A program made the position numbers and the translations under genes. A model generated the notes under the pieces. The model was not told where the DNA came from. It searched no databases and saw only the letters and a list, made by a program, of their open reading frames with translations. A stretch of 64,000 nt of DNA from a virus (taxonomy: Duplodnaviria; Caudoviricetes), in IMG/VR virus record IMGVR_UViG_3300027804_000001, positions 160,001-224,000 of that record; one strand, given 5' to 3'. Below, piece by piece: positions 16,035-55,701 of this stretch; position 1 is the first letter of the stretch, and each line of letters opens with the position of its first letter.

Positions 16035-16060
16035 CTAGATAAATTATTTTATATCTAATA

Positions 16061-16087
16061 AATACTTGCTATTTGTATTCAAGTATT
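16061..16087. other. Inverted repeat (terminator or operator) upstream of fibre gene
   Basis: AATACTTG-N11-CAAGTATT. Confidence 0.35.
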
Positions 16088-16101
16088 AAATATTTGAAAC
16101 T

Positions 16102-33685: not shown

Positions 33686-35350
33686 TCATTTATATATTAC
33701 ATAATTACCTATAACCAAAATATCCATCTCGGTATCATAGAAAGTATCAATCGCATCTTTTGGTGTTAACACCATTGTTTTGTCTTTCACATTGAATGAA
33801 GTATTAAGAAGGATTGGATATCCGGTTAGTTGTTCAAAAACAGTTAAGAGATTGTGTATTTTAGTGTGTTTATATACTGTTTGTACTCTAGCAGTTCCGT
33901 CAACATGTGTAACCGCTTTTAATATATCCACATATTCGTCCTTTACTTTAACAACTTGATTCATATAAGGAACATCCTCAACCATTTCAAAAAAATCAAA
34001 TTGTCTTTCTTTTGTAACCATTGGTGCAAATGGTCTAAAACCCTCTCTCTTTTTAATCACTTTATTTATTTTATCTTTCATTCCGTCTATTGTTGGATTG
34101 GCTAAAATTGATCTATTACCTAACGCCCTTGCACCGAATTCACACCTTCCTTGAAACCATCCGACAACCTTTCCCTTTTTTAAATTTAGGGCAACATGTT
34201 CCAACAATCTATTTTCTAAAGTAAACTTGAATATTTTTTCTTTCTTAATGTCCTTTAAAAATTTATCGTATTCATATCTTGGACCAATAAAAGGATTTTT
34301 TTGAATTCTATTTTTTAAGAGGTCGTTCTTTACCAAATAATGAACACACGCACCAATACATGAACCAGCATCTGATGGTGCCGGTGGTATCCATAAACTT
34401 TTAACATGTGTCTTTCTTATAATCTTTCCATTTGCGGTTCCGTTATATGCACAACCACCACTTAAACAAAGATTTGTATTTTGTGAAAATTTCTTTGTAT
34501 AGTTAATAATTTTAAATAATATCTCCTCATATACTTTTTGTACAGACGCAGCTAAATTTTTGTGTATAATTTCAATACTTTCCTCTGGTAATCTTTGTTC
34601 AATTCTTAAAACATTATATAGGTTTTCATTGAACATTAGTGTATCTGATCTATCCCAACAAAACACATCCATATCGCATTTTAGTTCTCCATTTTTGAAT
34701 GATATCAATTTTCTTACTCTATCAATTAATGGTCTATAATCACCATAAGACGCCAATCCCATCATTTTATATTCACCTTCATTTGGTTTAAATCCGAGGT
34801 AAGATGTCATTGCAGAATAGAATAGACCTAATGAATGTGGATATTTTGATAATGTTTTATATTCAATTCCTTTTGAATTTGCCAATCCAAAAGATAATGT
34901 ATCTATTTCACCGACACCATCAACAGATAAACAATTAGATTCTTTATAATCTGACATAAAAAAAGAATAATATTGATGTGCTAAATGATGTTCAGAATAA
35001 AAAATATTATCAGAATAGTTCGATAACATTTTTTTCACATTTTTAATATTATTTTTAATTTTAAAATAACTCTTTAAAGAGAATATTGGGTTTTTAAATA
35101 GTTTTGTTTTTACATTTTCTTTTACACGTTTAAGTTTTAATTGTGGGTTTTCATAATAACAAATAACAGAAATGTCTTTCTTTGTTAAATTATATTGTTT
35201 GAATATATAGTCAAGTGTTTTTACAGGAAACGATGAATCATGTTTTATACCTGTAAATTTTTCTTCCTCACAGGCAAACAATAATTCTCCGTTCTTGAAT
35301 AAACAAGCTGAAGAATCGTGATAGTATGCCGAAACACCAATTACGTACAT
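33686..35350 (-). CDS. Carbamoyltransferase (NodU/CmcH/TobZ family)
   Basis: YYHDSSA, EHHLAH, DGVGE, GEYKMMGLASYG, FGARALGNRS, KKREGFRPFAP, LLNTSFN. Confidence 0.95.
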   Translation of the reverse strand: MYVIGVSAYYHDSSACLFKNGELLFACEEEKFTGIKHDSSFPVKTLDYIFKQYNLTKKDISVICYYENPQLKLKRVKENVKTKLFKNPIFSLKSYFKIKNNIKNVKKMLSNYSDNIFYSEHHLAHQYYSFFMSDYKESNCLSVDGVGEIDTLSFGLANSKGIEYKTLSKYPHSLGLFYSAMTSYLGFKPNEGEYKMMGLASYGDYRPLIDRVRKLISFKNGELKCDMDVFCWDRSDTLMFNENLYNVLRIEQRLPEESIEIIHKNLAASVQKVYEEILFKIINYTKKFSQNTNLCLSGGCAYNGTANGKIIRKTHVKSLWIPPAPSDAGSCIGACVHYLVKNDLLKNRIQKNPFIGPRYEYDKFLKDIKKEKIFKFTLENRLLEHVALNLKKGKVVGWFQGRCEFGARALGNRSILANPTIDGMKDKINKVIKKREGFRPFAPMVTKERQFDFFEMVEDVPYMNQVVKVKDEYVDILKAVTHVDGTARVQTVYKHTKIHNLLTVFEQLTGYPILLNTSFNVKDKTMVLTPKDAIDTFYDTEMDILVIGNYVIYK

Positions 35351-35354
35351 TATT

Positions 35355-37088
35355 TTATAAATTTATTAAACTTTGAAAAAAGTTATAATCTGTCTTATCT
35401 TCATACAAACTAGCAACTATTTCTCTATTATGTTTGAATCTTTTTTTAGATTCTAAATAAAAACCAGATAATTGATTTTTAATTTTATTAAGACGAACAA
35501 TTTCATCGATAATCATTTTCATTCTTTTTTGTGGATTTGGTTCGTTGTCATAACTTGTATCCACAAAGTCTTCAAATAAATCAAACCCATATTTTTCTTT
35601 TGTTCTTTTAACATGTTGATATGTACCGACAAGTAACGGGATTTGGGAATAATACAATGGAATTAAAGTTTTCTCTGTAATGTGAATTACTTCATCTCTA
35701 GAGAATTGTGATTCATTTACGATATTAATATATGAATGTTTATATGGATTATTTTCAAACATATAATCCCAATTTTGTCCGCCACCTGGTGTATCTATGT
35801 CATACGTTTCAAATTCACTTTTTTTGTTTTCTGCATCTTTGAAATAATTAAAACTTTCTCTCATTTCATTTATCATTTCATCATCAAAAACATCTCTTAA
35901 TATGTTCATATCGATGTTACCATCTGGTAATCTATAATCAGCAAGTCTAGTTGCTCTTAAAAATGACCAATCGGTATCTTCTAATAAATTGTGGTGTTTA
36001 AGTGCTGTTAAAATACCAACCCTATGGCTTGTATAATTTCTATTATAACACATAAACAATCTTTCTTTTTTTGGTTGGAAGTGGTATCCATCGCAAAAGT
36101 TTAGTATGTTTCTTGTTACAACTAAAGGTAATCTATTTGAAACATGTACGTTTATATCAGAATTTGCTTCTTTTTTTAAATCAGGAAGTAGTTCATTTCC
36201 ATTAATTATAAAAATTTGATTTGTTGGTATTCCTTCCATTTTTGCAAAGTAATCTGAGAACTTTACTACGTTACCTAAATCACATTCGTGCTCTGTTATA
36301 AACAGAACTTTAAAATTTTCATTTTCAATTAGTAGTTTTTTGATTTCGTCTGATATCGGAAACTTTTTATTTTCGGATAAATAATGTGTTAAATAATATG
36401 GTACATGTACTAAATGATAAAAATTTTCCTCTTTTCTTTGAGTTATTTCTTCTTTGTTACAGATTTTATAATTTTTAACATCATACCAACCATTACCAAT
36501 AAAATCCAGTGTCATTGTTTCACTGGTGTTATGATTAAAATCGTCACAAATAAGATTTAATATTGTTTTATTGTTATATAATTCTGGATACTCGTTTATA
36601 ATATAAACACCCACTACACTTGTTGCTCGGTCATAATTTAGTCTAATGTCTTCGATTGTTTTACAATCAAGTATGGTAACATTTTTACACATACTTTTAA
36701 ATTCTTCAATATAATTTGCTTTGTGTTGATGTCCTGGGTCTAATGGTTTATCCGAACCTTTACCAACTCGTATAATCATGTGAACCTTTTCACCTGACAT
36801 TGATTCATATTTGTCAACATGATTTATTAATTGATTTGCTGCGGAAATTAAAAAATCCCATCTAGGGTAAAATGTAATTACTCTTTTACCTGTCATTGCT
36901 AATCCTAAACTCATACCCATCTGAGTTTCCTCCATTACAGGAACCTCAATCATTTTTTCTTTAGGTACTTCATCAAGTGTTGTACTCATTGGGTTACCTC
37001 TATATACAATTTGTTGTCCAATAAAAACATAATCATCATCTTTTGATAATTTAGTCATTATTTCAGAAAGTGTTTCTTTATATGTCAT
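35355..37088 (-). CDS. Fusion: TPP enzyme E1-beta/transketolase pyrimidine-binding domain + unnamed GT-like domain
   Basis: EVPVMEETQMGMSLGLA, GHQH; C-terminal INIVNES...ITEKT...YGFDLF...SYDNE. Confidence 0.75.
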   Translation of the reverse strand: MTYKETLSEIMTKLSKDDDYVFIGQQIVYRGNPMSTTLDEVPKEKMIEVPVMEETQMGMSLGLAMTGKRVITFYPRWDFLISAANQLINHVDKYESMSGEKVHMIIRVGKGSDKPLDPGHQHKANYIEEFKSMCKNVTILDCKTIEDIRLNYDRATSVVGVYIINEYPELYNNKTILNLICDDFNHNTSETMTLDFIGNGWYDVKNYKICNKEEITQRKEENFYHLVHVPYYLTHYLSENKKFPISDEIKKLLIENENFKVLFITEHECDLGNVVKFSDYFAKMEGIPTNQIFIINGNELLPDLKKEANSDINVHVSNRLPLVVTRNILNFCDGYHFQPKKERLFMCYNRNYTSHRVGILTALKHHNLLEDTDWSFLRATRLADYRLPDGNIDMNILRDVFDDEMINEMRESFNYFKDAENKKSEFETYDIDTPGGGQNWDYMFENNPYKHSYINIVNESQFSRDEVIHITEKTLIPLYYSQIPLLVGTYQHVKRTKEKYGFDLFEDFVDTSYDNEPNPQKRMKMIIDEIVRLNKIKNQLSGFYLESKKRFKHNREIVASLYEDKTDYNFFQSLINL

Positions 37089-37098
37089 ATTCTTTAAT

Positions 37099-37731
37099 TT
37101 AAAATGCTACCCATTTTCCACTTCCATAGTGTGGATATTTTGATTTATACTGATACCAAATTATATCATTAGGTACATCTCTTTTTATGTTATTCCAAGT
37201 TACCTCTGTTGGTGTATATGTTGATACTCCATTATCCTCCACAACAAAATATAATGGTAAATCGAAGTTTCTAGCGTATTTGTGTGTTTCATAAAACAAC
37301 CCACTTTCAAAACTCATATCACCTACAAATACCCAAACTTTTTCGTCACCACCACTTCTTTTAATTCCCATTGCAACACCTAAAGCAATTGATAATGTTC
37401 CACCAACAATTGCAGAAGCATAAAATTTGTCTTTTGGATTACAAACCGTAATTGATTTACCTTTTAATATTTGATCCTCTAACCATGCAGGGCAAATACC
37501 TTTTACCAAAGCATGATAATGTGATCTCCATGTTGAGAAAATCCAATCTGTTGTTTTTATTCTTTTGGATATTTCAATTAACTGTTCCTCATTACCATTT
37601 GATAAATGAACAGGTCCTCTAATTTTACCACCTTCCCAGTGATTTACAATTAAATCTTCAAATTTTATTAAATCTTCTGGTGTTAAATTTTGTTCTCTAA
37701 CTATTGGGTATTGTTCTAAATTTTTAATCAT
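37099..37731 (-). CDS. TPP-dependent E1-alpha-like subunit
   Basis: STWRSHYHAL, IVGG, GDMSFESG...VVEDN TPP motif. Confidence 0.88.
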   Translation of the reverse strand: MIKNLEQYPIVREQNLTPEDLIKFEDLIVNHWEGGKIRGPVHLSNGNEEQLIEISKRIKTTDWIFSTWRSHYHALVKGICPAWLEDQILKGKSITVCNPKDKFYASAIVGGTLSIALGVAMGIKRSGGDEKVWVFVGDMSFESGLFYETHKYARNFDLPLYFVVEDNGVSTYTPTEVTWNNIKRDVPNDIIWYQYKSKYPHYGSGKWVAF

Positions 37732-38285
37732 TTGTCTTTCATTTGAAGTATTGGGTTATTTGTTGGCCATTCTATGTTCCATTTTGGGTCGTTCCATTTT
37801 GCCACTCCGTGATTTATAGAATCTACATATTCACCTTTATAAAACATATTATAATGAAAAACACAATCAGTTAATGCGTAGTGACCATTTGCAAATCCTG
37901 GTGGAACCAATACTTGATTTCTATTTTTTTCTGAGATTAAAAACCAATCCCATTTACCGTATGTTGGTGAATTTTCTCTAACATCTAAAACTACAAGATA
38001 TATGTCACCAACTAATGCTTGTACCAACTTCCATGTTTTATCATCATAATGTAGACCTCTTAAAACATTTTTATATGACTTTGAAAATCTACCGTGAAAA
38101 CTAATTTCATTTTTATCATAATGAATATGTCTCATAACCGGATGTTCTTCACTATGAAATGTTGTAAAAATTTCACCTCTAAATTCTCTAAAGACTGAGG
38201 GTGTGAATATAGGAACCTCACATCCAAAAACTTTAGATGGGTTTTCTTCAAAATCACTCCATTTTTTTTCACTCATATTCCCCAA
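37728..38285 (-). CDS. rmlC: dTDP-4-dehydrorhamnose 3,5-epimerase family
   Basis: RGEIF, NVLRGLH, LDVRENSPTYGKW, VPPGFANGH, WNDP. Confidence 0.9.
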   Translation of the reverse strand: MGNMSEKKWSDFEENPSKVFGCEVPIFTPSVFREFRGEIFTTFHSEEHPVMRHIHYDKNEISFHGRFSKSYKNVLRGLHYDDKTWKLVQALVGDIYLVVLDVRENSPTYGKWDWFLISEKNRNQVLVPPGFANGHYALTDCVFHYNMFYKGEYVDSINHGVAKWNDPKWNIEWPTNNPILQMKDK

Positions 38286-39016
38286 AATTTTTTTCTAATT
38301 TCGTACACATCAAAAGGTTCTCTTTTCATTTGACCACCTTCTCTGATTGGTGCACTTTTTGTTTTATAACTAAGAACAATTGACCTTCTAAATCTGTCAC
38401 TTTTATTATCTTCCGAACCATGCACTAAATGGTCATGTGCAAATAACACATCACCAACTTTACAAACGTGGTTCACTTTATTAAAATGATGATTTTCAGG
38501 CATAACGCAAGCCCTACCTCTTTCATTTCTCCAAAACGATGGATTTGTTTTTGCTCTTTCCTCGTCTATTTCGATTGGTAGTATTGGTAAAAAATGTGAA
38601 CATTCATATGAATATAAACAACCATTTGTTTCATTCATAGAGTCCAAAGATATAATAACATTTATTGACCCACCCCAACCAGATTGAGTATAAAATCCAT
38701 CTTGATGAATATCTCTCCCTAACTCATTTGGGGGTTTGAAATATGCCAAACTTTGTATCCCCTCAATTTCATCTCCCATGATTTTTTCCAGTGTGTCAAT
38801 AATTTGAGGGTGACCGAATAGTTTTAGTATTAATTCAGAATCTTTTTGTGGGTGTGAGTACATGTCATATTCACCCCAAGAAAAATCTTTAGAATTTCTG
38901 ATAACTCTTAACCTATCTAATTCAAATTTTATATCTAAACATTCATACTCCGAAAAAATAGGGAGTATAATAAATCCACGATATTTCCAATTATATAATT
39001 CTTGTTCGTTTAACAT
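38273..39016 (-). CDS. Phytanoyl-CoA dioxygenase (PhyH) family 2OG-Fe(II) enzyme
   Basis: YFKPP, HQD, GDVLF, LVHGS, N-x-S-x-x-x-R. Confidence 0.88.
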   Translation of the reverse strand: MLNEQELYNWKYRGFIILPIFSEYECLDIKFELDRLRVIRNSKDFSWGEYDMYSHPQKDSELILKLFGHPQIIDTLEKIMGDEIEGIQSLAYFKPPNELGRDIHQDGFYTQSGWGGSINVIISLDSMNETNGCLYSYECSHFLPILPIEIDEERAKTNPSFWRNERGRACVMPENHHFNKVNHVCKVGDVLFAHDHLVHGSEDNKSDRFRRSIVLSYKTKSAPIREGGQMKREPFDVYEIRKKFWGI

Positions 39017-39026
39017 AATTGTATTT

Positions 39027-39437
39027 TTATTCCCAACTAATTCCCCAATCTTTAAATTCTGAAGCTAAACAGTCTGTTTTATAATCTTTCCTACCGCCAA
39101 CAATTTCTTGTATTTTATTTTTAGCAGTATTTCTAACACCGTTTAAACCATGTGTTAATTCTAAATTGGTATTTTCAGTTTTACCATACTTTCTGTAGTT
39201 AGATTCATTGTGCCAAATATGTAAATTAGTTTGTGCTAACACAACAATTGCCCTTACGGTATCAGCACTGATTAATTCATCAGTATTTTTTAGAATCAAA
39301 TCTATATCGTGTTTGATATCTCTTATTTCTTGTGCGTATTCCTCTTTATGTTCAGGTATAAACTGTTCTTTTAATTGAGAAATACTTAATCTGTCAACTA
39401 ATTCTGCTAATGTTGGTAGATACTTACGTTCTGACAT
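39027..39437 (-). CDS. Hypothetical helical protein
   Basis: TLAELVDRLSI, IWHNE, NGVRN pattern; inside NDP-sugar operon. Confidence 0.7.
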   Translation of the reverse strand: MSERKYLPTLAELVDRLSISQLKEQFIPEHKEEYAQEIRDIKHDIDLILKNTDELISADTVRAIVVLAQTNLHIWHNESNYRKYGKTENTNLELTHGLNGVRNTAKNKIQEIVGGRKDYKTDCLASEFKDWGISWE

Positions 39438-39440
39438 TTT

Positions 39441-40448
39441 TTATCTGTTTAAAAATTTACGACCTTTATTTATTCTATCTCTCCAATAATCCAAAAGGTC
39501 GTCCATTGTCTTATTGAATGGTATTAACGGTCTCCATCCCGTTAATTCACTAAATTTAGTTATATCTGGTATTTGTAAATCCGCATCAATTGGTCTTAGT
39601 CTACTTACATCTGTTACTATTTCAATATCTTTAACTGTTGACTTAGATAAAAAATAATTCAAGGTATCACCAACCTTACAGGTGTATGTGCCACCTATGT
39701 TATAATATTCACCAGGTATTGGGTTAATATTTAACAACATCCAATATGCTCTCACGGCGTCTCTAACATCTGCGTAAGTTCTTAATGAATCTAAATTACC
39801 AACCAATATTTTAGGTTCTTGTAAACCATTTTCAATCATTGCAATTTGTTTTGCAAATGTTGATTCGTGGAAAACATCTCCTCTTCTTGGTCCTGTGTGG
39901 GTAAACATTCTTGTTGTCATTACCTTCATCTTATAAGCCTCACCATAGTAACGACCAATTAAATCGGTACCTACTTTTGATATTGCATATGGTGATGCAG
40001 GGTGTAAAGAACATTCTTCATTAATTGGTAATTTATCCTTTGTAACTCTACCAAAAATCTCACTTGACGCACAAACATGTATCCTTGCATTTTTATAAGG
40101 AGATTTTCTAAGAGCCTCTAATAAATTTGCGGTACCTAATATATTTGTTTGTAATGTTTCTAAAGGTGAATCAAAACTTGTTTGTGGGTAAGATTGTGCA
40201 CCTAAATGAAACACAAAATCGGGTTTTGAGATTTCAATTGCATTAACAATAGATGCATAGTCATTTAAGTCACCATAAATTAATTCTACTCGTTCCTTTT
40301 TGTTTATGATGTCAGTTAAATGTTCTATGTTGTCCATAGATTCATTCCATCTACAGAAACCATAAATTTTAATGGACGGTTTTTCTAATAAGAAATCCAA
40401 CATATGTGAACCAACCATTCCTAAAACACCTGTTATCAATATGTTCAT
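39441..40448 (-). CDS. gmd: GDP-mannose 4,6-dehydratase
   Basis: FHLGAQSY, ASSEIFG, SPYAISK, GNLDSLRTYADVRD, LRPID. Confidence 0.85.
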   Translation of the reverse strand: MNILITGVLGMVGSHMLDFLLEKPSIKIYGFCRWNESMDNIEHLTDIINKKERVELIYGDLNDYASIVNAIEISKPDFVFHLGAQSYPQTSFDSPLETLQTNILGTANLLEALRKSPYKNARIHVCASSEIFGRVTKDKLPINEECSLHPASPYAISKVGTDLIGRYYGEAYKMKVMTTRMFTHTGPRRGDVFHESTFAKQIAMIENGLQEPKILVGNLDSLRTYADVRDAVRAYWMLLNINPIPGEYYNIGGTYTCKVGDTLNYFLSKSTVKDIEIVTDVSRLRPIDADLQIPDITKFSELTGWRPLIPFNKTMDDLLDYWRDRINKGRKFLNR

Positions 40449-41464
40449 TTATAATAAAATTTTTTTAACTTATCGTTTTCAAAAGCCCAATCAAAATCCT
40501 CTTTGTATTTTTCATATAATACGTAAAATTCTTGAGGAATGGTAGTGTTTTCTTCAATAATTTTTATTGCAGTGGAAATATTCTTTTCTAATTTATCCTT
40601 AACTTTAAGGTATAAATCATAATAGTTCATATCTTTTATTCTAATTAAGTTTGACATAATCCCATCCAATCTTTTATCTAAAGATTCTTCATTATCAAAA
40701 TCGTAGTCAAAAATCTCATCATATAATTCAAAACCATATTTTTTAAGGTTGGAGTGGAATCCCTTAATACTGACAACCAAAAAAATTTGTCCTAGTAATA
40801 ATGGTTTTGCCGTTTTTTCCGTCAGAAAAAAATAAATGTTATGGTTATTACATATAGTTTCGGTTACCAAATTTACCAGTGGGTTTCCATTATTCATTGA
40901 TAACCAATGTTGATTGGCTCCACTATCATATTCATGTGTATCATCTATTTTTACAATTTTTTGTTCCCAACATTTAAAATCATAAAGATGGTCGTCTTTA
41001 ATTAACCAAGATATCACTCCATAATCCAACAAATTGGATTTACATAGTTTATCAATTGTCATTGATCTATGTGGTTTTATGTGGTTATTTAAACAAATGA
41101 ATAATTTCTCGTAAACTCTTTTATCAATGTCCTCTTTAATTAATTTATATGTATCAAGTTGTGTATGGTATATACTGTTGAAAAAATATTGGGGGATGAA
41201 TATAAATTTAAACTTATTATATTTTCCATATTTTTCAAACACAATATCCTGCTTTTCAATACCTAAGAAAACATATAAGTCAATATTTTTACTATCTAAG
41301 AAATTATTAAAATCATTTAAAATTTCATTAAAAAATATGTCATATTCTCTAATGTAATCCCACACAATTATTTCCGGATTAAGTGTATTAATGTCATCCA
41401 AAATTTTTGAATAATCTTGGTGATTACTGCACCCACCAAACTTTATGAAATAAACTTTATTCAT
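40445..41464 (-). CDS. Unnamed GT-like family member (copy 2 of 5)
   Basis: FICLNN...HR, VNLVTET, LTEKTAKP, YGFELY...FDNE. Confidence 0.55.
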   Translation of the reverse strand: MNKVYFIKFGGCSNHQDYSKILDDINTLNPEIIVWDYIREYDIFFNEILNDFNNFLDSKNIDLYVFLGIEKQDIVFEKYGKYNKFKFIFIPQYFFNSIYHTQLDTYKLIKEDIDKRVYEKLFICLNNHIKPHRSMTIDKLCKSNLLDYGVISWLIKDDHLYDFKCWEQKIVKIDDTHEYDSGANQHWLSMNNGNPLVNLVTETICNNHNIYFFLTEKTAKPLLLGQIFLVVSIKGFHSNLKKYGFELYDEIFDYDFDNEESLDKRLDGIMSNLIRIKDMNYYDLYLKVKDKLEKNISTAIKIIEENTTIPQEFYVLYEKYKEDFDWAFENDKLKKFYYK

Positions 41465-42161
41465 TTGAAAATTTTATGTACAAATATTCAGAAAACAATC
41501 TATTCATTTTGAAACTCCAATGTGTATCAAAATCGGATCCATGTTTACCATTAGTTTGTATATAAACATCTTTATGTGTTTCCCACATACCAATATTCTT
41601 TGTTAAAATTTCTCTGTCTTCAATAATCTGAGATTTGAAATCCATTGTGTCCCAAGAAAATATATATTTTTTTCCTTTAGTTAAATTATAAAGAGATTCA
41701 ATAACTTCAATTGAATTCAATTGATTTGCCATAGAGGCGTTGATTATTTCTTGTGTTTTTAAATCATTCTCATATTTTTTCCAATCATACTGATTACCAA
41801 AGGTTTCAATATCACTATAAAGATTATTGTATGATGGGGTACCAATAAATCTATTTACGTATTTAACAACACTATTTTCAAAAACCTGATAATTTTTTTC
41901 TGATAATGGTAATCTTGTTCTTTTGAAATATGGAATACAAATAACCAAATAATCGTTTGGGGTGACTAATGATATTATTTTAATCCAATTGTCGATTATT
42001 GTTTGAACATCTCTACTTGGTTCTCCGTCACATATAAGATTGACATCTAACCTTTTAGATAAGTCACCAGCCCAAAAACACCTATTTTCATTTAAAGTCG
42101 GTTTTATGTATGTACATTCTCTACAAAAACTATCACCAATTACAAATAAATTATTTTTCAT
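41457..42161 (-). CDS. SGNH-hydrolase-like protein
   Basis: VIGDSFC, DTHWS; paralog of 6829..7584. Confidence 0.55.
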   Translation of the reverse strand: MKNNLFVIGDSFCRECTYIKPTLNENRCFWAGDLSKRLDVNLICDGEPSRDVQTIIDNWIKIISLVTPNDYLVICIPYFKRTRLPLSEKNYQVFENSVVKYVNRFIGTPSYNNLYSDIETFGNQYDWKKYENDLKTQEIINASMANQLNSIEVIESLYNLTKGKKYIFSWDTMDFKSQIIEDREILTKNIGMWETHKDVYIQTNGKHGSDFDTHWSFKMNRLFSEYLYIKFSNE

Positions 42162-43107
42162 TATTCATATACCATTCAATGGTTTCTTTTATTCCTTCTT
42201 CAAAACTATATTTTGGTACAAAACCTAACTCATTCTTTATTCTATCGGTACTAACCGCTCTAAATGGAATTGTGGTGGGTTTAGTATCATCCCAAATAAC
42301 TTCAGGTGTTTTACCTGTTATTTTTAAAATTGTGTCTAATATTTCACCAATTGTAATTCCATCACCATAACCTAAGTTATATGGTTTCATTGATTCACCT
42401 TTTTCTAAAATCAATAACGCACCTTCAACAACATCTTTAACATACAAAAAATCTCTAACAACATCGGGTGAACCCCAAGCAGTAAATGGATTTTCATCGT
42501 CAAGTATTCGTTTGATTAATGCAGGAACTACGTGACAATTTTTTAAATTAAAGTTATCGTGTGGACCAAATATTGCTGTACATCTTGCAAGTGCAATTTC
42601 TAAACCAGAAAATTTAGAGACATGTTCCATTAATTTTTCTCTATATCTCCTCATCCATCCGTAACCAAAATAAGATTGGTATGGTTCACCATCCCAATAC
42701 TCTTCTTCTGTTATTGGTCTTCTTATATCGGGATATCCAGTTGAGCTATTTAAATCTAAAAATCTTTTTACTTTATTTTTTGCAGAAGCCTCTAACACAT
42801 TACCAATTAAATTAAGTTGTTTTAATGATATCTGTACATCAGTTGGTACTGATGATGGATGTGCAATCTCACCTGCACAATGAATAACGTAATCTGCACC
42901 CTCAGTTAATTTTACACAATCCTCTAATTTCATTAAATCGATATCATGAAATACTTGTATGTGATTGTGTTCAAATTTTAATTCTTTCTTGTGTATGGAT
43001 GTCCTAATGTAAGCACCAGTCTCAACCAGTTCTTTTAAGAAATGTGTACCTATAAAACCAGAACCGCCAGTCACCACCACTTTTTTACCTTTAAGAAAAT
43101 TATTCAT
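42151..43107 (-). CDS. NAD-dependent epimerase/reductase (GDP-fucose/colitose synthase-like)
   Basis: GGSGFIG, HCAG, YGWMR, FGPHDNF, HVVPALI, RDFLYVKD. Confidence 0.85.
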   Translation of the reverse strand: MNNFLKGKKVVVTGGSGFIGTHFLKELVETGAYIRTSIHKKELKFEHNHIQVFHDIDLMKLEDCVKLTEGADYVIHCAGEIAHPSSVPTDVQISLKQLNLIGNVLEASAKNKVKRFLDLNSSTGYPDIRRPITEEEYWDGEPYQSYFGYGWMRRYREKLMEHVSKFSGLEIALARCTAIFGPHDNFNLKNCHVVPALIKRILDDENPFTAWGSPDVVRDFLYVKDVVEGALLILEKGESMKPYNLGYGDGITIGEILDTILKITGKTPEVIWDDTKPTTIPFRAVSTDRIKNELGFVPKYSFEEGIKETIEWYMNNEK

Positions 43108-43780
43108 AATATCTTTTTAAATTTTTTATCGAACTATTTTTGAATTTATTAAATAACTCGTAAATTGGCCTTCTATAATCATAATTTGAATTATACGTGT
43201 AATCCCCAAACAATGATTTAGATTTAAAATATTTTTTTACTTTAGATAACTCTACTCCCTCATTAGGAACAAAATCAAGGTTCCCCGTTAAATTCCATAT
43301 ATCAAAATTCATTATAAAATCTAACATATCCTCCATTAAAATATAATGAAAAAATGATTTATCTGATAATGTAATAATCTCATTGTTTTTAATTTTTTCA
43401 ATATGATTTTTTTTCATCGTTGGTCCAATCAAAGTTGGGCATCTAAGAATTAAATCTCTTTTGTCCATCATTGATTCAGAAAGTTTTTTAAATAAAGAAT
43501 AGGTTGTGTGATTTTCTTGGTAAACATCAACAGATGAAATATATATGAACTTTTGACACTTTAAATTTTTTAATTTTTGTGTCAAAAATATGTTATCGTC
43601 AATATATTTTTTATAGTCGGTTATATCGTTTTCCTTATTGAATGCACAATGAACAATAACATCATATTGGTTGTCTTTAATAGAATCAAAATTGTTTCTA
43701 TCTAAACCAAAAGAGTTGGGTATTCTTTCATGTAAAAATTTACCCAACCCACTGTTAACACCTGTTATTAAAATTTTCAT
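43100..43780 (-). CDS. Short NAD-dependent epimerase/SDR
   Basis: GVNSGLG, YISSVDVY, YSLFK. Confidence 0.78.
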   Translation of the reverse strand: MKILITGVNSGLGKFLHERIPNSFGLDRNNFDSIKDNQYDVIVHCAFNKENDITDYKKYIDDNIFLTQKLKNLKCQKFIYISSVDVYQENHTTYSLFKKLSESMMDKRDLILRCPTLIGPTMKKNHIEKIKNNEIITLSDKSFFHYILMEDMLDFIMNFDIWNLTGNLDFVPNEGVELSKVKKYFKSKSLFGDYTYNSNYDYRRPIYELFNKFKNSSIKNLKRYYE

Positions 43781-44751
43781 TAGTGATGTACAAAAGGATT
43801 ATATCTCTTATCAATTATTTCCTTATTATTTAAAAACCATTCAGTAGTTAATTTAATACCTTCATCCAGACTAACATGATTTCCCAATCCATGTTTTTCC
43901 ATTCTTTCCGTACTCATTAATCTTTTTGCATCTCCACTTGGCATATCACTTAACCATTTAACCTCTATGTTACGACCTGAATATTTTAAAATAATATCCA
44001 CTAAATTTTTAATCGAGTGTCCACCGCCAGAACCTAAATTAATAGGTTCTGTAATTTTATTTTCAACTACTTTCAACATTCCTTTTGCAACATCATCCGC
44101 ATAAATAAAGTCGCGAATAGGTGTTCCATCACCAAAGACTTCAAGCACATCACTTTCCTGTGCTTTTCTTATAAGTGATGGTATCACCATCGCGTTTTGA
44201 GGATTGAAATTATCATATGGACCATAAACATTAGCAGGTCTTACAATTGAAATTCTATCCCACCCATATTGTTTACTGTATGTTTCAGTTTGTAATTCAC
44301 CAATCCTTTTTGCCCAACCAGCATATTTGTCATTTGGTGATGGAAAAGTACTCCAAACAGATTCTTCATAAAAAACTTCCGCAGGTGAATAGACACCAAC
44401 AGAGCTGGTGTATAGATACCACTTAACATTTGATTCAAATGCCGCTTGTGTCATGTTTGTATTAAATTGTAACATAGGAACCATAAAGTCTACCGGTTGT
44501 TCAATACACATTTTAGGTGAACCCTTTACCCCCGCCAAATGAAATACATAATCTTTTCCTTTACATATGTCCAAACAATTGTCAAAGAATCTTAAATCAA
44601 CTTGGGTGAATTCAACACTTTCAGGTAAATCTACAGGTTTAGTTAAATCGGCAATAGTTACTATTGCACCTCTTTGTAATAAAAGATTTACAAGTGATCT
44701 ACCAATCATTCCTGATCCACCCGTTACTAATACTTTCTGATTCTCAAACAT
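43780..44751 (-). CDS. NAD-dependent epimerase/reductase (GDP-fucose synthase / GDP-Man epimerase-like)
   Basis: GGSGMIG, HLAG, YAGWAKR, NVYGPYDNF, VIPSLI, RDFIYADD. Confidence 0.87.
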   Translation of the reverse strand: MFENQKVLVTGGSGMIGRSLVNLLLQRGAIVTIADLTKPVDLPESVEFTQVDLRFFDNCLDICKGKDYVFHLAGVKGSPKMCIEQPVDFMVPMLQFNTNMTQAAFESNVKWYLYTSSVGVYSPAEVFYEESVWSTFPSPNDKYAGWAKRIGELQTETYSKQYGWDRISIVRPANVYGPYDNFNPQNAMVIPSLIRKAQESDVLEVFGDGTPIRDFIYADDVAKGMLKVVENKITEPINLGSGGGHSIKNLVDIILKYSGRNIEVKWLSDMPSGDAKRLMSTERMEKHGLGNHVSLDEGIKLTTEWFLNNKEIIDKRYNPFVHH

Positions 44752-45925
44752 TGTTTAATTTTTTTGTTAAGTTTATAATTTGTTCATCTGTTAAATCCGT
44801 ATGATTTCCAATATAAAGTGAATAGTTGTGTACATAATTAACATTTTTTAATTCACCAACAATTCTATGTTCACATTTTTCTAAATAAGGTTGTAATACT
44901 TGATTTCCTCCTCCAGATGTACCTAATCTATATTCTACACCCTCGAAAAATAAAATATCACATACACTACTATAATCATCATTAACTTTAAAACTATCTA
45001 TGTAATTTGGTTTCATTATTAATGGTAACGCAAAATTACTATTACCCTCTAAATCAAATTCGGTGATAAATTTATTACCATCCAAATTATTTAACCAAAC
45101 ATCAAGATTATGTTTTCTTTTTTCAACATTGTAATCAATCCTTTTCATTTGTTCGATACCCAAAACGGCATTCATTTCTGTACTTCTCATATTAAATCCA
45201 GGAACAACAAAAGTAAAAAGTGGATTTAAATTTGGATATTCTCTTTGGTAATATTGTTGTGTCTGTTGTGAGACTTCTCTTGTCATACCATGTGATCTGA
45301 AAAGTCTCGCCAATTCATTAATTTTTTCGTTGTTTGTTGAAATCATACCACCTTCTACAGTTGTTATGTGGTGACCAAAGAAAAATGAGAAAATTGACAT
45401 ATCACCAAATGTACCAACTTTTTGTCCTTTATGACAAGCACCGTGTGATTCACAACAATCTTCAATTAATAAGATATTTTTTTCTTTTGCAATTTGAATT
45501 AATTCGTCATCTATAGCATTAAAACCTAAACAATGAACAATAACAATTGCTTTTGTTTCATCGGTAATTGCTTTTTTAATATTTTCAGTTGTAATTGATA
45601 AATTACTTAGAGAAATATCCACAAAAACCGGTTTCATTCCGAGTTGAACAATTGATGATACATCTGAAACCCAACCCAATGGTGGTACTATTACTTCACC
45701 AATACCTAATAATTCTTTTACTATTGCAATAGAAATATAGTTTCCTGATGAACCCGAATTTATCATTGTTGAGTTTTTTACACCCAACCATTTAGACCAT
45801 ATACTTTCAAATTCTTTAACTTTCTCACCATTAGTTAATCTTTGGTTTGATAATAAAAACTCACTAAGTGCCACTCTGTCCGTGTTTGAAATATTGTCAT
45901 TTATAAGGGGCCATTTAAAATTCAT
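44744..45925 (-). CDS. DegT-fold PLP enzyme with His in place of catalytic Lys (ColD-type NDP-4-keto-6-deoxysugar 3-dehydratase-like)
   Basis: NSGSSGN, EDCCESHG, SFFFGHHITTVEGG, PGFNMR. Confidence 0.82.
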   Translation of the reverse strand: MNFKWPLINDNISNTDRVALSEFLLSNQRLTNGEKVKEFESIWSKWLGVKNSTMINSGSSGNYISIAIVKELLGIGEVIVPPLGWVSDVSSIVQLGMKPVFVDISLSNLSITTENIKKAITDETKAIVIVHCLGFNAIDDELIQIAKEKNILLIEDCCESHGACHKGQKVGTFGDMSIFSFFFGHHITTVEGGMISTNNEKINELARLFRSHGMTREVSQQTQQYYQREYPNLNPLFTFVVPGFNMRSTEMNAVLGIEQMKRIDYNVEKRKHNLDVWLNNLDGNKFITEFDLEGNSNFALPLIMKPNYIDSFKVNDDYSSVCDILFFEGVEYRLGTSGGGNQVLQPYLEKCEHRIVGELKNVNYVHNYSLYIGNHTDLTDEQIINLTKKLNNV

Positions 45926-55014: not shown

Positions 55015-55701
55015 TTATAAACCCTTGAAGGTTGAGTTCAATCTTAAATCTTTATAGTTTTTTGAACCGTGTGTATCATCATTTATTTCAGATATTTTAC
55101 TCATTAAAATTAATCCCCTTGCTGCATCTTCTGGTGTCATGTACATATGCCAACCACAAAATTCAATATCATCATCCAAATAATTTTTACTTAAGTCTCG
55201 ACCATCATAACAAGCCCTTTTAAACCATTTATAAGCCTCATAATCGTCACATAAAATCATACCTCCTCTACCTATTGGTAATCTTTTTTTCATTTGAAAT
55301 GACAACGCTTGGAACCCTCCTTGGTACATATCCTTAGTCCATCTACCGGCCCCATCCCATACATCCAAAGGCTCTAGTTTATAAACACCGGACCATTCTT
55401 TCTCAATAAATTCAAACTCATAACCGGCATGTAAAATTTGCATCGGTACAGATGCATATGTGAAATAAGGAATCTTAATTTTTTGTGGTTTATTGATATA
55501 TTTTAGAATAAGAAATAACGCATTACTACAACAATCTACAGCAATTGCATATTTTGAACCAGAAAACTCCGCAACTTTATTTTCAAATATATCTATGATT
55601 TCATTTGGGTTATTCCATACATAACCCATATTAGACAAGGTAGATAACTCAGGTCTCTGTAATTCTTCTGGTATTTGTCCTAATGGCCATTCTTTATACA
55701 T
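55015..55701 (-). CDS. Short DegT/DnrJ/EryC1/StrS family PLP aminotransferase
   Basis: AVDCCSNAL, DGA, SFQMKKRLPIGRGGMIL (Lys retained). Confidence 0.85.
   Translation of the reverse strand: MYKEWPLGQIPEELQRPELSTLSNMGYVWNNPNEIIDIFENKVAEFSGSKYAIAVDCCSNALFLILKYINKPQKIKIPYFTYASVPMQILHAGYEFEFIEKEWSGVYKLEPLDVWDGAGRWTKDMYQGGFQALSFQMKKRLPIGRGGMILCDDYEAYKWFKRACYDGRDLSKNYLDDDIEFCGWHMYMTPEDAARGLILMSKISEINDDTHGSKNYKDLRLNSTFKGL

What the first reader, a model, noticed from the sequence alone, without database searches (positions are those of the whole stretch)
35355..45925. GDP-linked 3,6-dideoxy / branched-chain sugar pathway
Seen: one promoter drives a His-type DegT protein (SFFFGHH, not SxxxxK), three SDRs, Gmd, RmlC, a PhyH dioxygenase and a TPP E1 alpha/beta pair. 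Established: Gmd + ColD + ColC make GDP-colitose, and TPP enzymes such as YerE add a two-carbon branch to a 4-keto-3,6-dideoxy sugar (yersiniose, normally CDP-linked). Inference: a GDP-based branched dideoxysugar, possibly further hydroxylated and carbamoylated, which would be unusual for a virus.
Basis: partly seen in the sequence, partly recalled or inferred. Interest (0 to 1): 0.62.

Follow-up and report, generated by a model that had tools for sequence, protein, structure and literature searches.

The report
Phage dideoxy-heptose operon with mini thiamine enzyme
A very large uncultured water phage carries a tightly packed gene set that most likely turns a GDP-linked seven-carbon sugar (rather than GDP-mannose) into a 3,6-dideoxy-4-keto form. 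A stripped-down, untested two-part thiamine enzyme, common in phages and bacterial surface-sugar loci, then probably adds a carbon branch.

Summary
The reading needs three corrections.

1. The "Gmd" and "RmlC" match the Campylobacter jejuni GDP-heptose 4,6-dehydratase and GDP-heptose epimerases far better than they match Gmd or RmlC. With the ColD-type (His-for-Lys) PLP enzyme and two fucose-synthase-like SDRs, this is the enzyme set of the known GDP-3,6-dideoxy-heptose route. The likely substrate is therefore GDP-heptose, not GDP-mannose.

2. The E1 pair is a distinct minimal family: alpha 210 aa, beta 175 aa, with no beta C-terminal domain and no E2/E3 partners. It is the conserved core of this phage group's glycan island (77 viral loci). 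It also occurs in about 30 cellular genomes (SAR11, CPR, Nitrospirales, Massilia and others), next to GmhA/HddA/HddC-like genes and, in seven loci, a His-type DegT.

3. ColD and the 4,6-dehydratase form an accessory cassette: both present in 14 of 62 loci, both absent in 48.

The beta subunit is fused to a GT-B, fucosyltransferase-like domain in this sub-lineage only.

C-branching by the thiamine enzyme is inferred by analogy (AviB1/B2, Plm8/9, KbDH) and is untested. This scan has found the same cassette before on other DNA.

The parts
44744..45925 (-). ColD-type PLP/PMP sugar C3-dehydratase (393 aa). His replaces the Schiff-base Lys (SFFFGHH at residue 180).
   Evidence: Pfam DegT, E 9e-70. 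Best solved relatives are ColD 2gms (187.6 bits), then E1/RfbH-type 3bcx (151.9 bits), with His aligned to ColD's His. There is no CxC Fe-S motif; Cys residues are at 132, 157, 158, 164, 322 and 351. No NAD_binding_1 (E3-type) gene occurs in the phage genomes.
43780..44751 (-). Extended SDR (323 aa), GDP-fucose-synthase / GDP-mannose-3,5-epimerase-like. Candidate C4 or branch ketoreductase with a non-canonical catalytic motif.
   Evidence: Pfam Epimerase, E 6e-48. Best PDB match is GDP-fucose synthetase at 119 bits. No YxxxK; the family consensus is D-W-[FY]-P-x-W-x-K-R.
43100..43780 (-). Short SDR-like ORF (226 aa) with an N-terminal TGxxxGxG. Specific to this phage.
   Evidence: Weak Pfam Epimerase hit, 23 bits. 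No counterpart in any of 77 related loci.
42151..43107 (-). Extended SDR (318 aa), GDP-mannose-3,5-epimerase / GDP-fucose-synthase-like, with a non-canonical motif (YGWMR).
   Evidence: Pfam Epimerase, E 3e-43. Best PDB match is GDP-mannose 3,5-epimerase at 118 bits. Motif analysis.
41457..42161 (-). Unknown 234-aa protein. It has an N-terminal GDS motif only, so it is possibly SGNH-like.
   Evidence: No Pfam, NCBIfam or PHROG hit. Found in 6 related loci. Motif seen.
40445..41464 (-). 339-aa member of the local GT-B paralogue family. Probable glycosyltransferase.
   Evidence: BLASTP to the C-domain of the E1-beta fusion (E 2e-11) and to the C-terminal part of the 719-aa SDR fusion (E 1e-16).
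39441..40448 (-). GDP-sugar 4,6-dehydratase (335 aa) of the C. jejuni GDP-heptose type.
   Evidence: [quoted passage not shown] Carries the S-S-E and YAISK motifs. Strictly co-occurs with ColD (14 of 14 loci).
39027..39437 (-). Unknown, highly conserved phage-specific 136-aa helical protein.
   Evidence: 67-95% identity in 19 distinct related sequences and none in cellular loci. The AF2 model is a helical bundle with pLDDT 77. No informative fold match.
38273..39016 (-). PhyH-family Fe(II)/2-oxoglutarate oxygenase (247 aa). Candidate sugar hydroxylase.
   Evidence: Pfam PhyH, E 2e-14. H104-x-D106 plus a downstream His. Weak PDB hits include the sugar-acting SnoK and EvdO2. Present only in the nearest relatives (7 loci).
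37728..38285 (-). Cupin C3/C5 epimerase of the GDP-heptose type (185 aa).
   Evidence: Best PDB matches are C. jejuni GDP-heptose 3- and 3,5-epimerases 7an4, 7m14 and 8dco (135-142 bits), against RmlC at 84 bits. Found in 55 of 77 loci at a median 71% identity.
37099..37731 (-). Mini E1-alpha (210 aa): the ThDP diphosphate-binding (PP) domain only.
   Evidence: Pfam E1_dh, E 1e-14. NCBIfam PDH_E1_alph_y scores 76 bits against a cut-off of 394. Aligns to residues 61-206 of the 365-aa chain of human E1-alpha. The GDM...EDN Mg/ThDP motif is conserved (G137, E165, D166 and N167 at 97% or more; D138 is invariant in the 12-sequence alignment and 90% or more conserved). 77 viral loci at 60-90% identity and 4721 clusters.
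36564..37088 (-). Mini E1-beta domain (residues 1-175 of the 577-aa ORF): the ThDP pyrimidine-binding (Pyr) domain, without the beta C-terminal domain.
   Evidence: Pfam Transket_pyr. Aligns to the E1-beta N-domain, with the catalytic Glu (E53) conserved. Free-standing at 173-205 aa in 58 of 65 loci. Fused to alpha in phrog_34187 and in P0209.
35355..36563 (-). GT-B glycosyltransferase domain (residues 176-577), fucosyltransferase (GT10)-like, fused to mini E1-beta.
   Evidence: AF2 model with pLDDT 90.3 and pTM 0.90. Top VIA-align matches: FUT9 8d0o (Z 11.5), T4 BGT (Z 11.4), H. pylori FucT 5zoi (Z 11.1), FUT11 (Z 11.1). Foldseek hits are all GT-B. Invariant R181 and E297-K298.
33686..35350 (-). 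It is a conserved neighbour of the E1-beta gene in this class of loci.
   Evidence: Pfam Carbam_trans_N and Carbam_trans_C, E 8e-57 and 7e-66. Present in 13 of 14 ColD-containing loci.

Best explanation
The block is a phage-encoded nucleotide-sugar tailoring operon that works on a host-supplied GDP-sugar. [quoted passage not shown]

**Proposed route**
1. The 4,6-dehydratase makes the GDP-6-deoxy-4-keto sugar.
2. The ColD-type PLP enzyme removes the 3-OH, using glutamate and needing no Fe-S/E3 partner. This gives the GDP-3,6-dideoxy-4-keto sugar.
3. The cupin epimerase inverts C5.
4. The minimal ThDP enzyme (alpha 210 aa plus the beta Pyr domain) decarboxylates a 2-oxo acid, most simply pyruvate, and adds the acyl-anion equivalent to the C4 ketone. 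This creates a 4-C-acyl tertiary alcohol.
5. One of the two non-canonical fucose-synthase-like SDRs reduces the branch or the ring ketone.
6. The PhyH oxygenase and the carbamoyltransferase may decorate the product further.
7. The GT10-like GT-B domain fused to E1-beta, and its paralogues, transfer the sugar to an acceptor, probably a virion or fibre glycan.

**Shown by sequence or structure comparison:** enzyme families, the His-for-Lys replacement, conservation of the ThDP and Mg motifs and the catalytic Glu, loss of the complex-forming domains, the GT-B fold, and gene co-occurrence.

**Inferred:** all substrates and products, the order of steps, the branching reaction, and the acceptor.
For: - **GDP-sugar relatives throughout:** ColD, GDP-heptose 4,6-dehydratase 7us5 at 358 bits, GDP-heptose epimerases, and GDP-fucose synthase / GDP-mannose epimerase.
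- **Known pathway match:** the same four enzyme types make GDP-3,6-dideoxy-heptose in C. jejuni HS:5 (PMC10440746; PMC10680097).
- **ColD and the 4,6-dehydratase travel together:** both present in 14 of 62 loci, both absent in 48.
- **Relatives lacking them have a different 4-keto-generating enzyme.** They carry instead an SDR that scores 359 bits to 6vo6, which I recall to be Cj1427, the GDP-heptose C4-dehydrogenase. So the entry enzyme appears to be swapped around a constant core of epimerase, mini-E1 and two SDRs.
- **The mini-E1 alpha and beta work as one enzyme:** they are adjacent in about 25 cellular genomes and fused in phrog_34187 and P0209.
- **Cellular context:** a His-type DegT follows E1-beta directly in seven cellular loci and lies about 1 kb downstream in an eighth. 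HddA-like kinases occur in 20 of 30 loci and HddC-like transferases in 15 of 30 (NCBIfam best hits). GmhA-like SIS genes lie inside at least two of the loci.
- **A phage relative carries a heptose-type kinase:** one complete relative encodes an HddA-like kinase at 338 bits.
- **No dehydrogenase complex:** no E2, lipoyl or E3-type gene occurs in four phage genomes.
- **Published precedent:** E1 alpha/beta (alphaKADH2) enzymes add a pyruvate-derived acetyl branch to C3/C4 keto sugars (PMC4802897; PMC12247030).
Against: - **No enzyme here has been assayed.**
- **Missing activation genes:** no nucleotidyltransferase or SIS gene was found in this contig or in three complete relatives, and no GHMP-kinase domain in this contig. 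The phage must therefore use what the host makes, and GDP-mannose is commoner than GDP-heptose.
- **Sub-threshold family hits:** the HddA/HddC-like hits in cellular loci are far below NCBIfam cut-offs (142 of 600 and 143 of 300 bits).
- **Distance from characterised enzymes:** the mini-E1 is only distantly related to full-length E1 (76 bits against a cut-off of 394). I could not compare it directly with AviB1, Plm8 or KbDH.
- **Separable modules:** the E1 pair occurs without ColD in most loci, so it need not act on the 3,6-dideoxy intermediate.
- **Uncertain SDR chemistry:** both SDR families lack the canonical YxxxK.
- **A hint of a different role:** E1-alpha is tightly associated with sugar kinases in cells, and one natural protein may fuse a kinase-like N-terminus to E1-alpha (P0221). 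This leaves room for a role before nucleotide activation.
Confidence: 0.5

Rival explanations
1. The pathway starts from GDP-mannose (Gmd, then ColD) and yields a colitose-like GDP-3,6-dideoxy-hexose, which the ThDP pair branches (a GDP-linked yersiniose analogue).
For: ColD is the closest solved relative of the PLP enzyme. GDP-mannose is widely available, and the phage group mostly lacks heptose-activation genes. From my own knowledge, the C. jejuni heptose dehydratase also accepts GDP-mannose.
Against: The dehydratase scores 358 bits to the heptose enzyme against 142 bits to GMD. The cupin epimerase type is so far known only for GDP-heptoses (PMC10680097). Cellular cassettes carry GmhA/HddA/HddC-like genes. 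A related phage has an HddA-like kinase.
Confidence: 0.2
2. Two modules rather than one pathway. ColD, the 4,6-dehydratase, the epimerase and an SDR make a plain GDP-3,6-dideoxy-heptose, as in C. jejuni HS:5. The mini-E1 with its fixed SDR partners does something else: it branches a different 4-keto sugar, or it forms a C-C bond on a sugar phosphate before kinase and guanylyltransferase activation.
For: 48 of 62 related loci keep E1-alpha/beta, the epimerase and both SDRs without ColD or the dehydratase. In cells E1-alpha is most constantly linked to an HddA-like kinase (20 of 30 loci). P0221 appears, by my reading of its motifs, to fuse a kinase-like N-terminus to E1-alpha. A SAR11 locus holds a separate split transketolase beside the pair.
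Against: In this class of loci the genes form one uninterrupted string, with ColD upstream and the E1 pair downstream. In seven cellular loci a His-type DegT directly follows E1-beta. Most phages keep the E1 pair but have no kinase, isomerase or transferase to process a pre-activation product.
Confidence: 0.2
3. The E1 pair is an auxiliary metabolic enzyme (a 2-oxo-acid decarboxylase or dehydrogenase component) unrelated to sugars.
For: Pfam and NCBIfam name it only as pyruvate dehydrogenase E1.
Against: It is half the normal length and lacks the beta C-terminal domain. No E2, lipoyl or E3 gene is present. In the phage and cellular loci examined it sits among nucleotide-sugar genes, wherever enough flanking DNA is held.
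Confidence: 0.05

Closest known systems
Campylobacter jejuni HS:5/HS:11 GDP-3,6-dideoxy-heptose pathway (4,6-dehydratase, PLP C3-dehydratase, C5-epimerase, C4-reductase; Ghosh, Xiang & Raushel 2023, PMC10440746)
   Same: The same four enzyme types are present. The dehydratase and epimerase have these very enzymes as their best solved relatives. The PLP enzyme is His-type.
   Different: The phage PLP enzyme is a divergent His-type DegT (187 bits to ColD), whereas the C. jejuni enzyme is 62-67% identical to ColD. The SDRs lack YxxxK. There are no GmhA/HddA/HddC genes. The ThDP pair, PhyH, carbamoyltransferase and GT10-like domains are added. The context is a phage genome.
alphaKADH2-type (E1 alpha/beta) sugar C-branching ThDP enzymes of actinomycete antibiotics: AviB1/AviB2, Plm8/Plm9, aldgamycin and kosinostatin enzymes, KbDH-alpha/beta (PMC4802897; PMC12247030)
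   Same: A two-subunit E1-type ThDP enzyme without E2/E3, encoded inside a deoxysugar operon next to enzymes that generate a 4-keto sugar.
   Different: The subunits are about half the usual size (210 and 175 aa) and beta has no C-terminal domain. The context is a GDP-sugar surface or virion glycan rather than a secondary metabolite (whose sugars, where named in the papers read, are dTDP/NDP-deoxyhexoses). Sequence relatedness to those enzymes was not tested here.
YerE / yersiniose A pathway (CDP-4-keto-3,6-dideoxyglucose plus pyruvate; Chen, Guo & Liu 1998, cited in PMC4802897 and PMC9306805)
   Same: The logic matches: a PMP/PLP 3-dehydrase makes a 3,6-dideoxy-4-keto sugar, which a ThDP enzyme then branches at C4. 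A His-type DegT sits adjacent to the ThDP genes.
   Different: YerE is a single-chain decarboxylase-superfamily enzyme acting on a CDP-hexose and needing E1/E3. Here the enzyme is of the E1/transketolase superfamily, the sugar is GDP-linked, and the dehydratase is ColD-type and E3-independent.
ColD (GDP-4-keto-6-deoxymannose 3-dehydratase, colitose pathway; PDB 2gms)
   Same: It is the best solved relative. His occupies the Lys position, and there is no Fe-S motif and no reductase partner.
   Different: The relationship is only moderate (187.6 bits). Gly precedes the His instead of Ser. No ColC-type partner was identified.

Membership tests
ColD-type PLP sugar C3-dehydratase | DegT/AAT type-I fold | tested here: met
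   PF01041, E 9e-70, covering positions 12-357 of 360.
ColD-type PLP sugar C3-dehydratase | His replaces the internal-aldimine Lys | tested here: met
   SFFFGHH. The first His aligns with the ColD residue that differs between the 2gms and 3b8x chains, by my recollection His188.
ColD-type PLP sugar C3-dehydratase | No [2Fe-2S] Cys motif and no E3 reductase partner (distinguishes it from E1/RfbH) | tested here: met
   No CxC motif; Cys positions listed. No PF00175 in four phage genomes. The E1 motif itself is quoted from my own knowledge.
ColD-type PLP sugar C3-dehydratase | Removes 3-OH from a GDP-4-keto-6-deoxy sugar | not testable with these tools
   Needs an enzyme assay.
[quoted passage not shown] | Extended SDR with the S/T-x-E dehydratase motif and YxxxK | tested here: met
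   SSE at about residues 128-130 and YAISK at 154. PF16363 at 248 bits.
[quoted passage not shown] | Closer to the heptose enzyme than to GMD | tested here: met
   7us5 at 358 bits against 1db3 at 142 bits. TIGR01472 gmd scores 158 bits, below its cut-off of 415.
[quoted passage not shown] | Prefers GDP-heptose over GDP-mannose | not testable with these tools
   Context is mixed. Cellular homologues of 52-58% identity lie next to HddA-like kinases. The phage itself lacks heptose-activation genes.
alphaKADH2 / E1 alpha-beta ThDP enzymes | ThDP-Mg motif (GDG...N) in alpha and catalytic Glu in beta | tested here: met
   GDM...EDN: G137, E165, D166 and N167 are conserved at 97% or more, and D138 is invariant and 90% or more conserved. 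E53 of beta is conserved. Alignments to human E1-alpha and BCKDH E1-beta.
alphaKADH2 / E1 alpha-beta ThDP enzymes | Full-length alpha (about 330-370 aa) and beta with a C-terminal transketolase-C domain | tested here: not met
   Alpha is 210 aa and matches only residues 61-206 of the 365-aa human E1-alpha chain. The beta domain is 175 aa with no C-domain. NCBIfam scores are far below cut-offs.
alphaKADH2 / E1 alpha-beta ThDP enzymes | Part of a 2-oxo-acid dehydrogenase complex (E2 and E3 present) | tested here: not met
   No PF00198, PF00364 or PF00175 in G000-G003.
alphaKADH2 / E1 alpha-beta ThDP enzymes | Carboligation of pyruvate onto an NDP-keto sugar | not testable with these tools
   Inferred only from gene context and published analogues.
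YerE-like (decarboxylase superfamily) branching enzymes | Single chain with TPP_enzyme_N/M/C domains | tested here: not met
   The best Pfam hits are E1_dh and Transket_pyr on two separate polypeptides. There is only a weak, partial TPP_enzyme_C hit of 27 bits.
GT10-like fucosyltransferase (GT-B) | GT-B two-Rossmann fold | tested here: met
   Model pLDDT 90. All top Foldseek and VIA-align matches are GT-B enzymes.
GT10-like fucosyltransferase (GT-B) | Specifically GT10 (alpha1,3-FucT motif, GDP-sugar donor) | tested here: inconclusive
   FUT9, H. pylori FucT and FUT11 are at the top (Z 11.1-11.5) but tied with T4 BGT (Z 11.4). The invariant R181 and TEK resemble the FucT motif as I recall it.

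The most novel reading that the evidence does not exclude
The mini-E1 pair is a new and very widespread class of stand-alone ThDP carboligase. It builds C-branched, heptose-derived (nine-carbon or longer) sugars for the surfaces of SAR11, CPR and other uncultured bacteria and for the virions of large aquatic phages. That would be a type of monosaccharide and an enzyme architecture not yet described. In this phage the branching enzyme would be physically coupled to the transferase that uses its product.
Probability: 0.4. Interest if true: 0.75.

Novelty: new variant of a known kind. Interest (0 to 1): 0.6.

Why it matters
- **Phage biology:** if the reading holds, large aquatic phages make their own rare 3,6-dideoxy (and probably C-branched) heptose for a glycan coat. 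So far such sugars are known only from bacterial capsules.
- **Enzymology:** the minimal ThDP enzyme would be the smallest E1-type carboligase known. It would extend keto-sugar branching from actinomycete antibiotics (dTDP-sugars) to GDP-heptose surface glycans. The 2025 review PMC12247030 notes that no alphaKADH2 structure accepting ketones exists, and it explicitly expects new examples in viruses.
- **Ecology:** the same cassette lies in surface-sugar regions of SAR11 and other abundant uncultured bacteria. It therefore bears on phage-host recognition in oceans and lakes.
- **Testability:** the hypothesis can be tested directly with a handful of recombinant proteins.

Tried and rejected
- **Phage database search:** megablast of the block against 50,697 phage records gave no match.
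- **Rfam:** no hits in the window.
- **Promoter and terminator scan:** not informative, with matches below shuffle expectation.
Contexts of the distant E1-alpha representatives (P0209, P0221 and others) could not be read. The listing of cluster members gave no names.
- **Genome scan:** A 12-sequence alignment worked.
- **The 136-aa protein:** no Pfam or PHROG hit. The Atlas gave only a weak DUF6165 lead. Neither Foldseek nor VIA-align gave a meaningful match for its helical model.
- **The 195-aa ORF** beside the HddA-like kinase of the relative G003 has no PDB relative.
- **6vo6 identity:** I could not confirm from a held paper that 6vo6 is Cj1427 (PMC7509852 is not held), so that identity rests on memory.
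- **Phylogeny not done:** I could not obtain AviB1, Plm8, KbDH, ColD or RfbH sequences as references.
- **Rejected idea:** the E1 pair as part of a dehydrogenase complex.

Full report
**Setting**

The window is the reverse strand of bases 178-64177 of a 180.8-kb IMG/VR viral contig that CheckV rates 54% complete. G+C is about 29%. Minus-strand ORFs are packed with few gaps from about 63.9 kb down to 16.1 kb. Most of these genes are glycan-related:
- glycosyltransferases, methyltransferases and radical-SAM enzymes;
- a nucleotide-sugar dehydrogenase;
- a GT9 (heptosyltransferase-family) protein;
- a collagen-like fibre with a Peptidase_S74 end.

Earlier notes of this scan call it a jumbo phage of Bacteroidota, possibly a 'moraphage'. 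I did not test that. The moraphage paper mentions only core glycosyltransferases, not this pathway.

**Observation**

- The DegT protein carries SFFFGHH. In the alignment to ColD (2gms), its first His pairs with the residue that differs between the 2gms and 3b8x chains, which by my recollection is catalytic His188.
- The third 'SDR' (226 aa) is weak and unique to this phage.
- 'One promoter' cannot be verified. Promoter-like matches are fewer than in shuffles, and the gene string continues on both sides of the block.

**What the sugar enzymes are**

| Gene | Best solved relative | Comparison |
|---|---|---|
| Cupin epimerase | eight C. jejuni GDP-heptose C3 or C3/C5 epimerase structures (135-142 bits) | RmlC 84 bits |
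| Two 320-aa SDRs | GDP-fucose synthase and GDP-mannose 3,5-epimerase | |
| PLP enzyme | ColD (187.6 bits) | E1/RfbH-type dehydrase (151.9 bits) |

The PLP enzyme has no CxC iron-sulfur motif. No E3-type reductase domain is found in four genomes of the phage group.

So every recognisable enzyme has GDP-sugar relatives. The set of 4,6-dehydratase, PLP C3-dehydratase, cupin epimerase and Fcl-like SDR is exactly the set shown to make GDP-3,6-dideoxy-heptoses in C. jejuni HS:5/HS:11 (PMC10440746; PMC10680097).

**The thiamine enzyme**

- *Alpha.* The alpha gene encodes only 210 aa. It matches residues 61-206 of the 365-aa human E1-alpha chain and keeps the ThDP/Mg motif as GDM...EDN.
- *Beta.* The beta domain (175 aa) matches the N-terminal Pyr domain of E1-beta and keeps the catalytic Glu. 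It lacks the C-terminal domain.
- *Family scores.* NCBIfam scores are far below the PDH cut-offs.
- *Complex partners.* No E2 core, lipoyl domain or E3-type domain exists in this contig or in three complete relatives.
- *One enzyme.* phrog_34187 is a 405-position family covering alpha plus beta. The metagenomic protein P0209 (401 aa) is a natural alpha-beta fusion.
- *Abundance.* The family has 4721 clusters at 90% identity and 596 representatives at E <= 1e-10.

**Comparative context in phages**

E1-alpha was found in 77 IMG/VR loci at 60-90% identity. The beta domain is in 65 of them, free-standing (173-205 aa) in 58. It is fused to the 400-aa domain only in the seven closest relatives, plus the window itself.

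Two locus types exist.
- *Type 1: 14 of the 62 loci with enough upstream DNA.* These have the window's order: DUF5672, ColD, SDR, SDR, (234-aa or 339-aa ORF), 4,6-dehydratase, 136-aa ORF, (PhyH), (epimerase), E1-alpha, E1-beta, carbamoyltransferase. ColD and the dehydratase are always both present.
- *Type 2: 48 of the 62 loci.* These have neither. They keep the epimerase, E1-alpha, E1-beta and both SDR families. Upstream of the epimerase they carry an SDR that scores 359 bits to PDB 6vo6. I recall 6vo6 to be Cj1427, the GDP-heptose C4-dehydrogenase, but could not verify this.

The simplest reading is a constant core (epimerase, mini-E1 and two SDRs) that processes a GDP-4-keto sugar. The entry enzymes are exchangeable: a C4-dehydrogenase, or a 4,6-dehydratase plus C3-dehydratase. 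This parallels serotype variation in C. jejuni.

**Comparative context in cells**

A scan of one genome per species found full-length mini-E1-alpha at 41-59% identity in about 30 genomes. They include several Pelagibacteraceae single-cell genomes, Patescibacteria, Massilia sp. LXY-6, Nitrospirales, Verrucomicrobiota, Actinomycetota, Chloroflexota, Omnitrophota and a Woesearchaeote. Below that, identity drops to 36% or less, matching only part of the query and hence presumably ordinary E1-alpha genes.
- The mini-beta gene follows alpha directly in about 25 of the 30 loci and precedes it in one; the remaining four show no beta within the DNA held.
- In seven loci the next gene is a His-type DegT (SFYYAHH..EGG). 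An eighth has one about 1 kb downstream.
- A GHMP kinase whose best NCBIfam hit is HddA is in 20 of 30 loci. A nucleotidyltransferase whose best hit is HddC is in 15 of 30. Both are below the curated cut-offs.
- GmhA-like SIS genes lie inside the Nitrospirales and Actinomycetota loci, and probably the Massilia one.
- The Nitrospirales locus also has Wzy-like, Wzm and Wzt genes, so it is an O-antigen-type cluster.
- Homologues of the phage dehydratase (52-58% identity) sit beside HddA-like kinases in SAR11 and Chloroflexota loci.
- None of these activation genes is in the 77 phage loci. One complete relative (G003) does encode an HddA-like kinase (338 bits) elsewhere in its genome.

Together this favours GDP-heptose as the substrate, at about two in three. 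The phage evidently relies on the host for the activated sugar, which keeps GDP-mannose possible.

**The fused domain**

The C-terminal 402 residues of the beta fusion belong to a family with five copies in the window and many more in related phages.
- An AlphaFold model from 39 sequences is confident (pLDDT 90.3, pTM 0.90).
- The fold is GT-B. Foldseek returns only GT-B enzymes.
- The exhaustive VIA-align search is led by human FUT9 (Z 11.5), T4 beta-glucosyltransferase (Z 11.4), H. pylori alpha1,3-fucosyltransferase (Z 11.1) and plant FUT11 (Z 11.1).
- Invariant R181 and E297-K298 in 'TEK' resemble the alpha1,3-fucosyltransferase motif as I remember it. A GDP-sugar-using GT10-like transferase is therefore plausible but not established.
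- The fusion to E1-beta suggests that the transferase uses the product of the ThDP step. It is recent and confined to one sub-lineage.

**Mechanism proposed**

1. Host GDP-heptose (or GDP-mannose) is converted to the 6-deoxy-4-keto sugar by the 4,6-dehydratase.
2. The ColD-type enzyme, with PLP and glutamate, gives the 3,6-dideoxy-4-keto sugar.
3. The cupin epimerase acts at C5.
4. The mini-E1, with pyruvate or another 2-oxo acid, gives a 4-C-acyl tertiary alcohol.
5. An SDR reduces the branch or ring ketone.
6. Hydroxylation (PhyH) and O-carbamoylation may follow.
7. GT10-like enzymes transfer the product.

The precedent for step 4 is published. E1 alpha/beta (alphaKADH2) enzymes attach a pyruvate-derived two-carbon branch at C3 or C4 of keto sugars in paulomycin, avilamycin, aldgamycin, kosinostatin and kibdelomycin, and KbDH has been shown to do this in vitro. 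YerE-type enzymes do the same on CDP-3,6-dideoxy-4-keto-glucose.

Everything about substrates, products and order here is inference.

**Caveats**

- The E1 pair is separable from the dideoxy cassette. However, the uninterrupted order here and the DegT adjacency in seven cellular loci argue that they cooperate when together.
- The constant link of E1-alpha with a sugar kinase in cells, and a possible kinase-like fusion (P0221), leave open a role before nucleotide activation.
- Both SDR families lack the canonical YxxxK, so their chemistry may not be simple ketoreduction.
- The conserved 136-aa helical protein is unexplained.

**Novelty**

- The 3,6-dideoxy-heptose logic is known from C. jejuni (2023), and E1-type sugar branching is known from antibiotics.
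- The combination is new: a half-sized E1 pair, in GDP-heptose-type surface-glycan cassettes of phages and many uncultured bacteria. I found no paper that describes or tests it.
- This scan has reported the same cassette several times on other DNA. I reached the same reading from my own searches before seeing those notes.

Noticed in passing
window 43780-44751 and 42151-43107; homologues in L004-L110: Both fucose-synthase-like SDR families that always accompany the mini-E1 lack the canonical catalytic YxxxK. One has D-W-[FY]-P-x-W-x-K-R, with Pro or Ala at the Tyr position. The other has Y-x-x-V-G-x-M-K-R or YGWMR. This is conserved in phage and cellular copies, while the canonical Fcl-like sequences in the same alignment keep PYxxAK.
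   Followed up: partly
window 39027-39437: A 136-aa phage-specific protein is more conserved (67-95% identity) than the enzymes around it. It follows the 4,6-dehydratase in every ColD-containing locus checked and occurs elsewhere in some loci without it. It is predicted to be a helical bundle with many invariant His, Glu and Asp residues. No family or fold match was found.
   Followed up: partly
L083:7265-9011 (Pelagibacteraceae AG-349-E10): A SAR11 surface-sugar locus carries a separate split transketolase (Transketolase_N 280 aa plus Transket_pyr 305 aa) just upstream of the mini-E1 pair. The locus also holds an HddA-like kinase and a heptose-type 4,6-dehydratase, so it has two ThDP enzymes in one sugar cluster.
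   Followed up: no
P0221 (552 aa), P0135 (553 aa), P0146 (550 aa), metagenomic proteins: Longer natural proteins contain the mini-E1-alpha domain. By my reading, the N-terminal part of P0221 shows aminoglycoside-phosphotransferase-like kinase motifs (HNILVD, DFEYFG). This would be a kinase-E1-alpha fusion.
   Followed up: partly
L023:10632-12274 (related 238-kb phage): In loci without ColD, E1-alpha is followed by a 401-aa radical-SAM protein and a PNKP-type HAD phosphatase. B12-binding radical-SAM genes also sit beside the cassette in the Nitrospirales locus (L092:6279-7832).
   Followed up: no
L161:8300-9352 (G003:C1:37329-38348): A complete related phage encodes a full-length HddA-like GHMP kinase (338 bits to NF049969) next to an APS-kinase-like gene. 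It lies 125 kb from that phage's E1 locus, and no nucleotidyltransferase was detected in the genome.
   Followed up: partly
window 55015-55701: A 228-aa ORF matches only two separated pieces of the DegT profile (positions 24-92 and 164-242). It is a shortened or degenerate DegT-like protein in the same gene string.
   Followed up: no
window 12927-18219: A collagen-repeat fibre with a Peptidase_S74 chaperone end lies in a patch of about 43% G+C. Directly upstream of it in the direction of transcription (at 16102-18219) is a 705-aa protein with a GT9 (heptosyltransferase-family) domain. This is a possible acceptor and transferase for heptose-type sugars.
   Followed up: no
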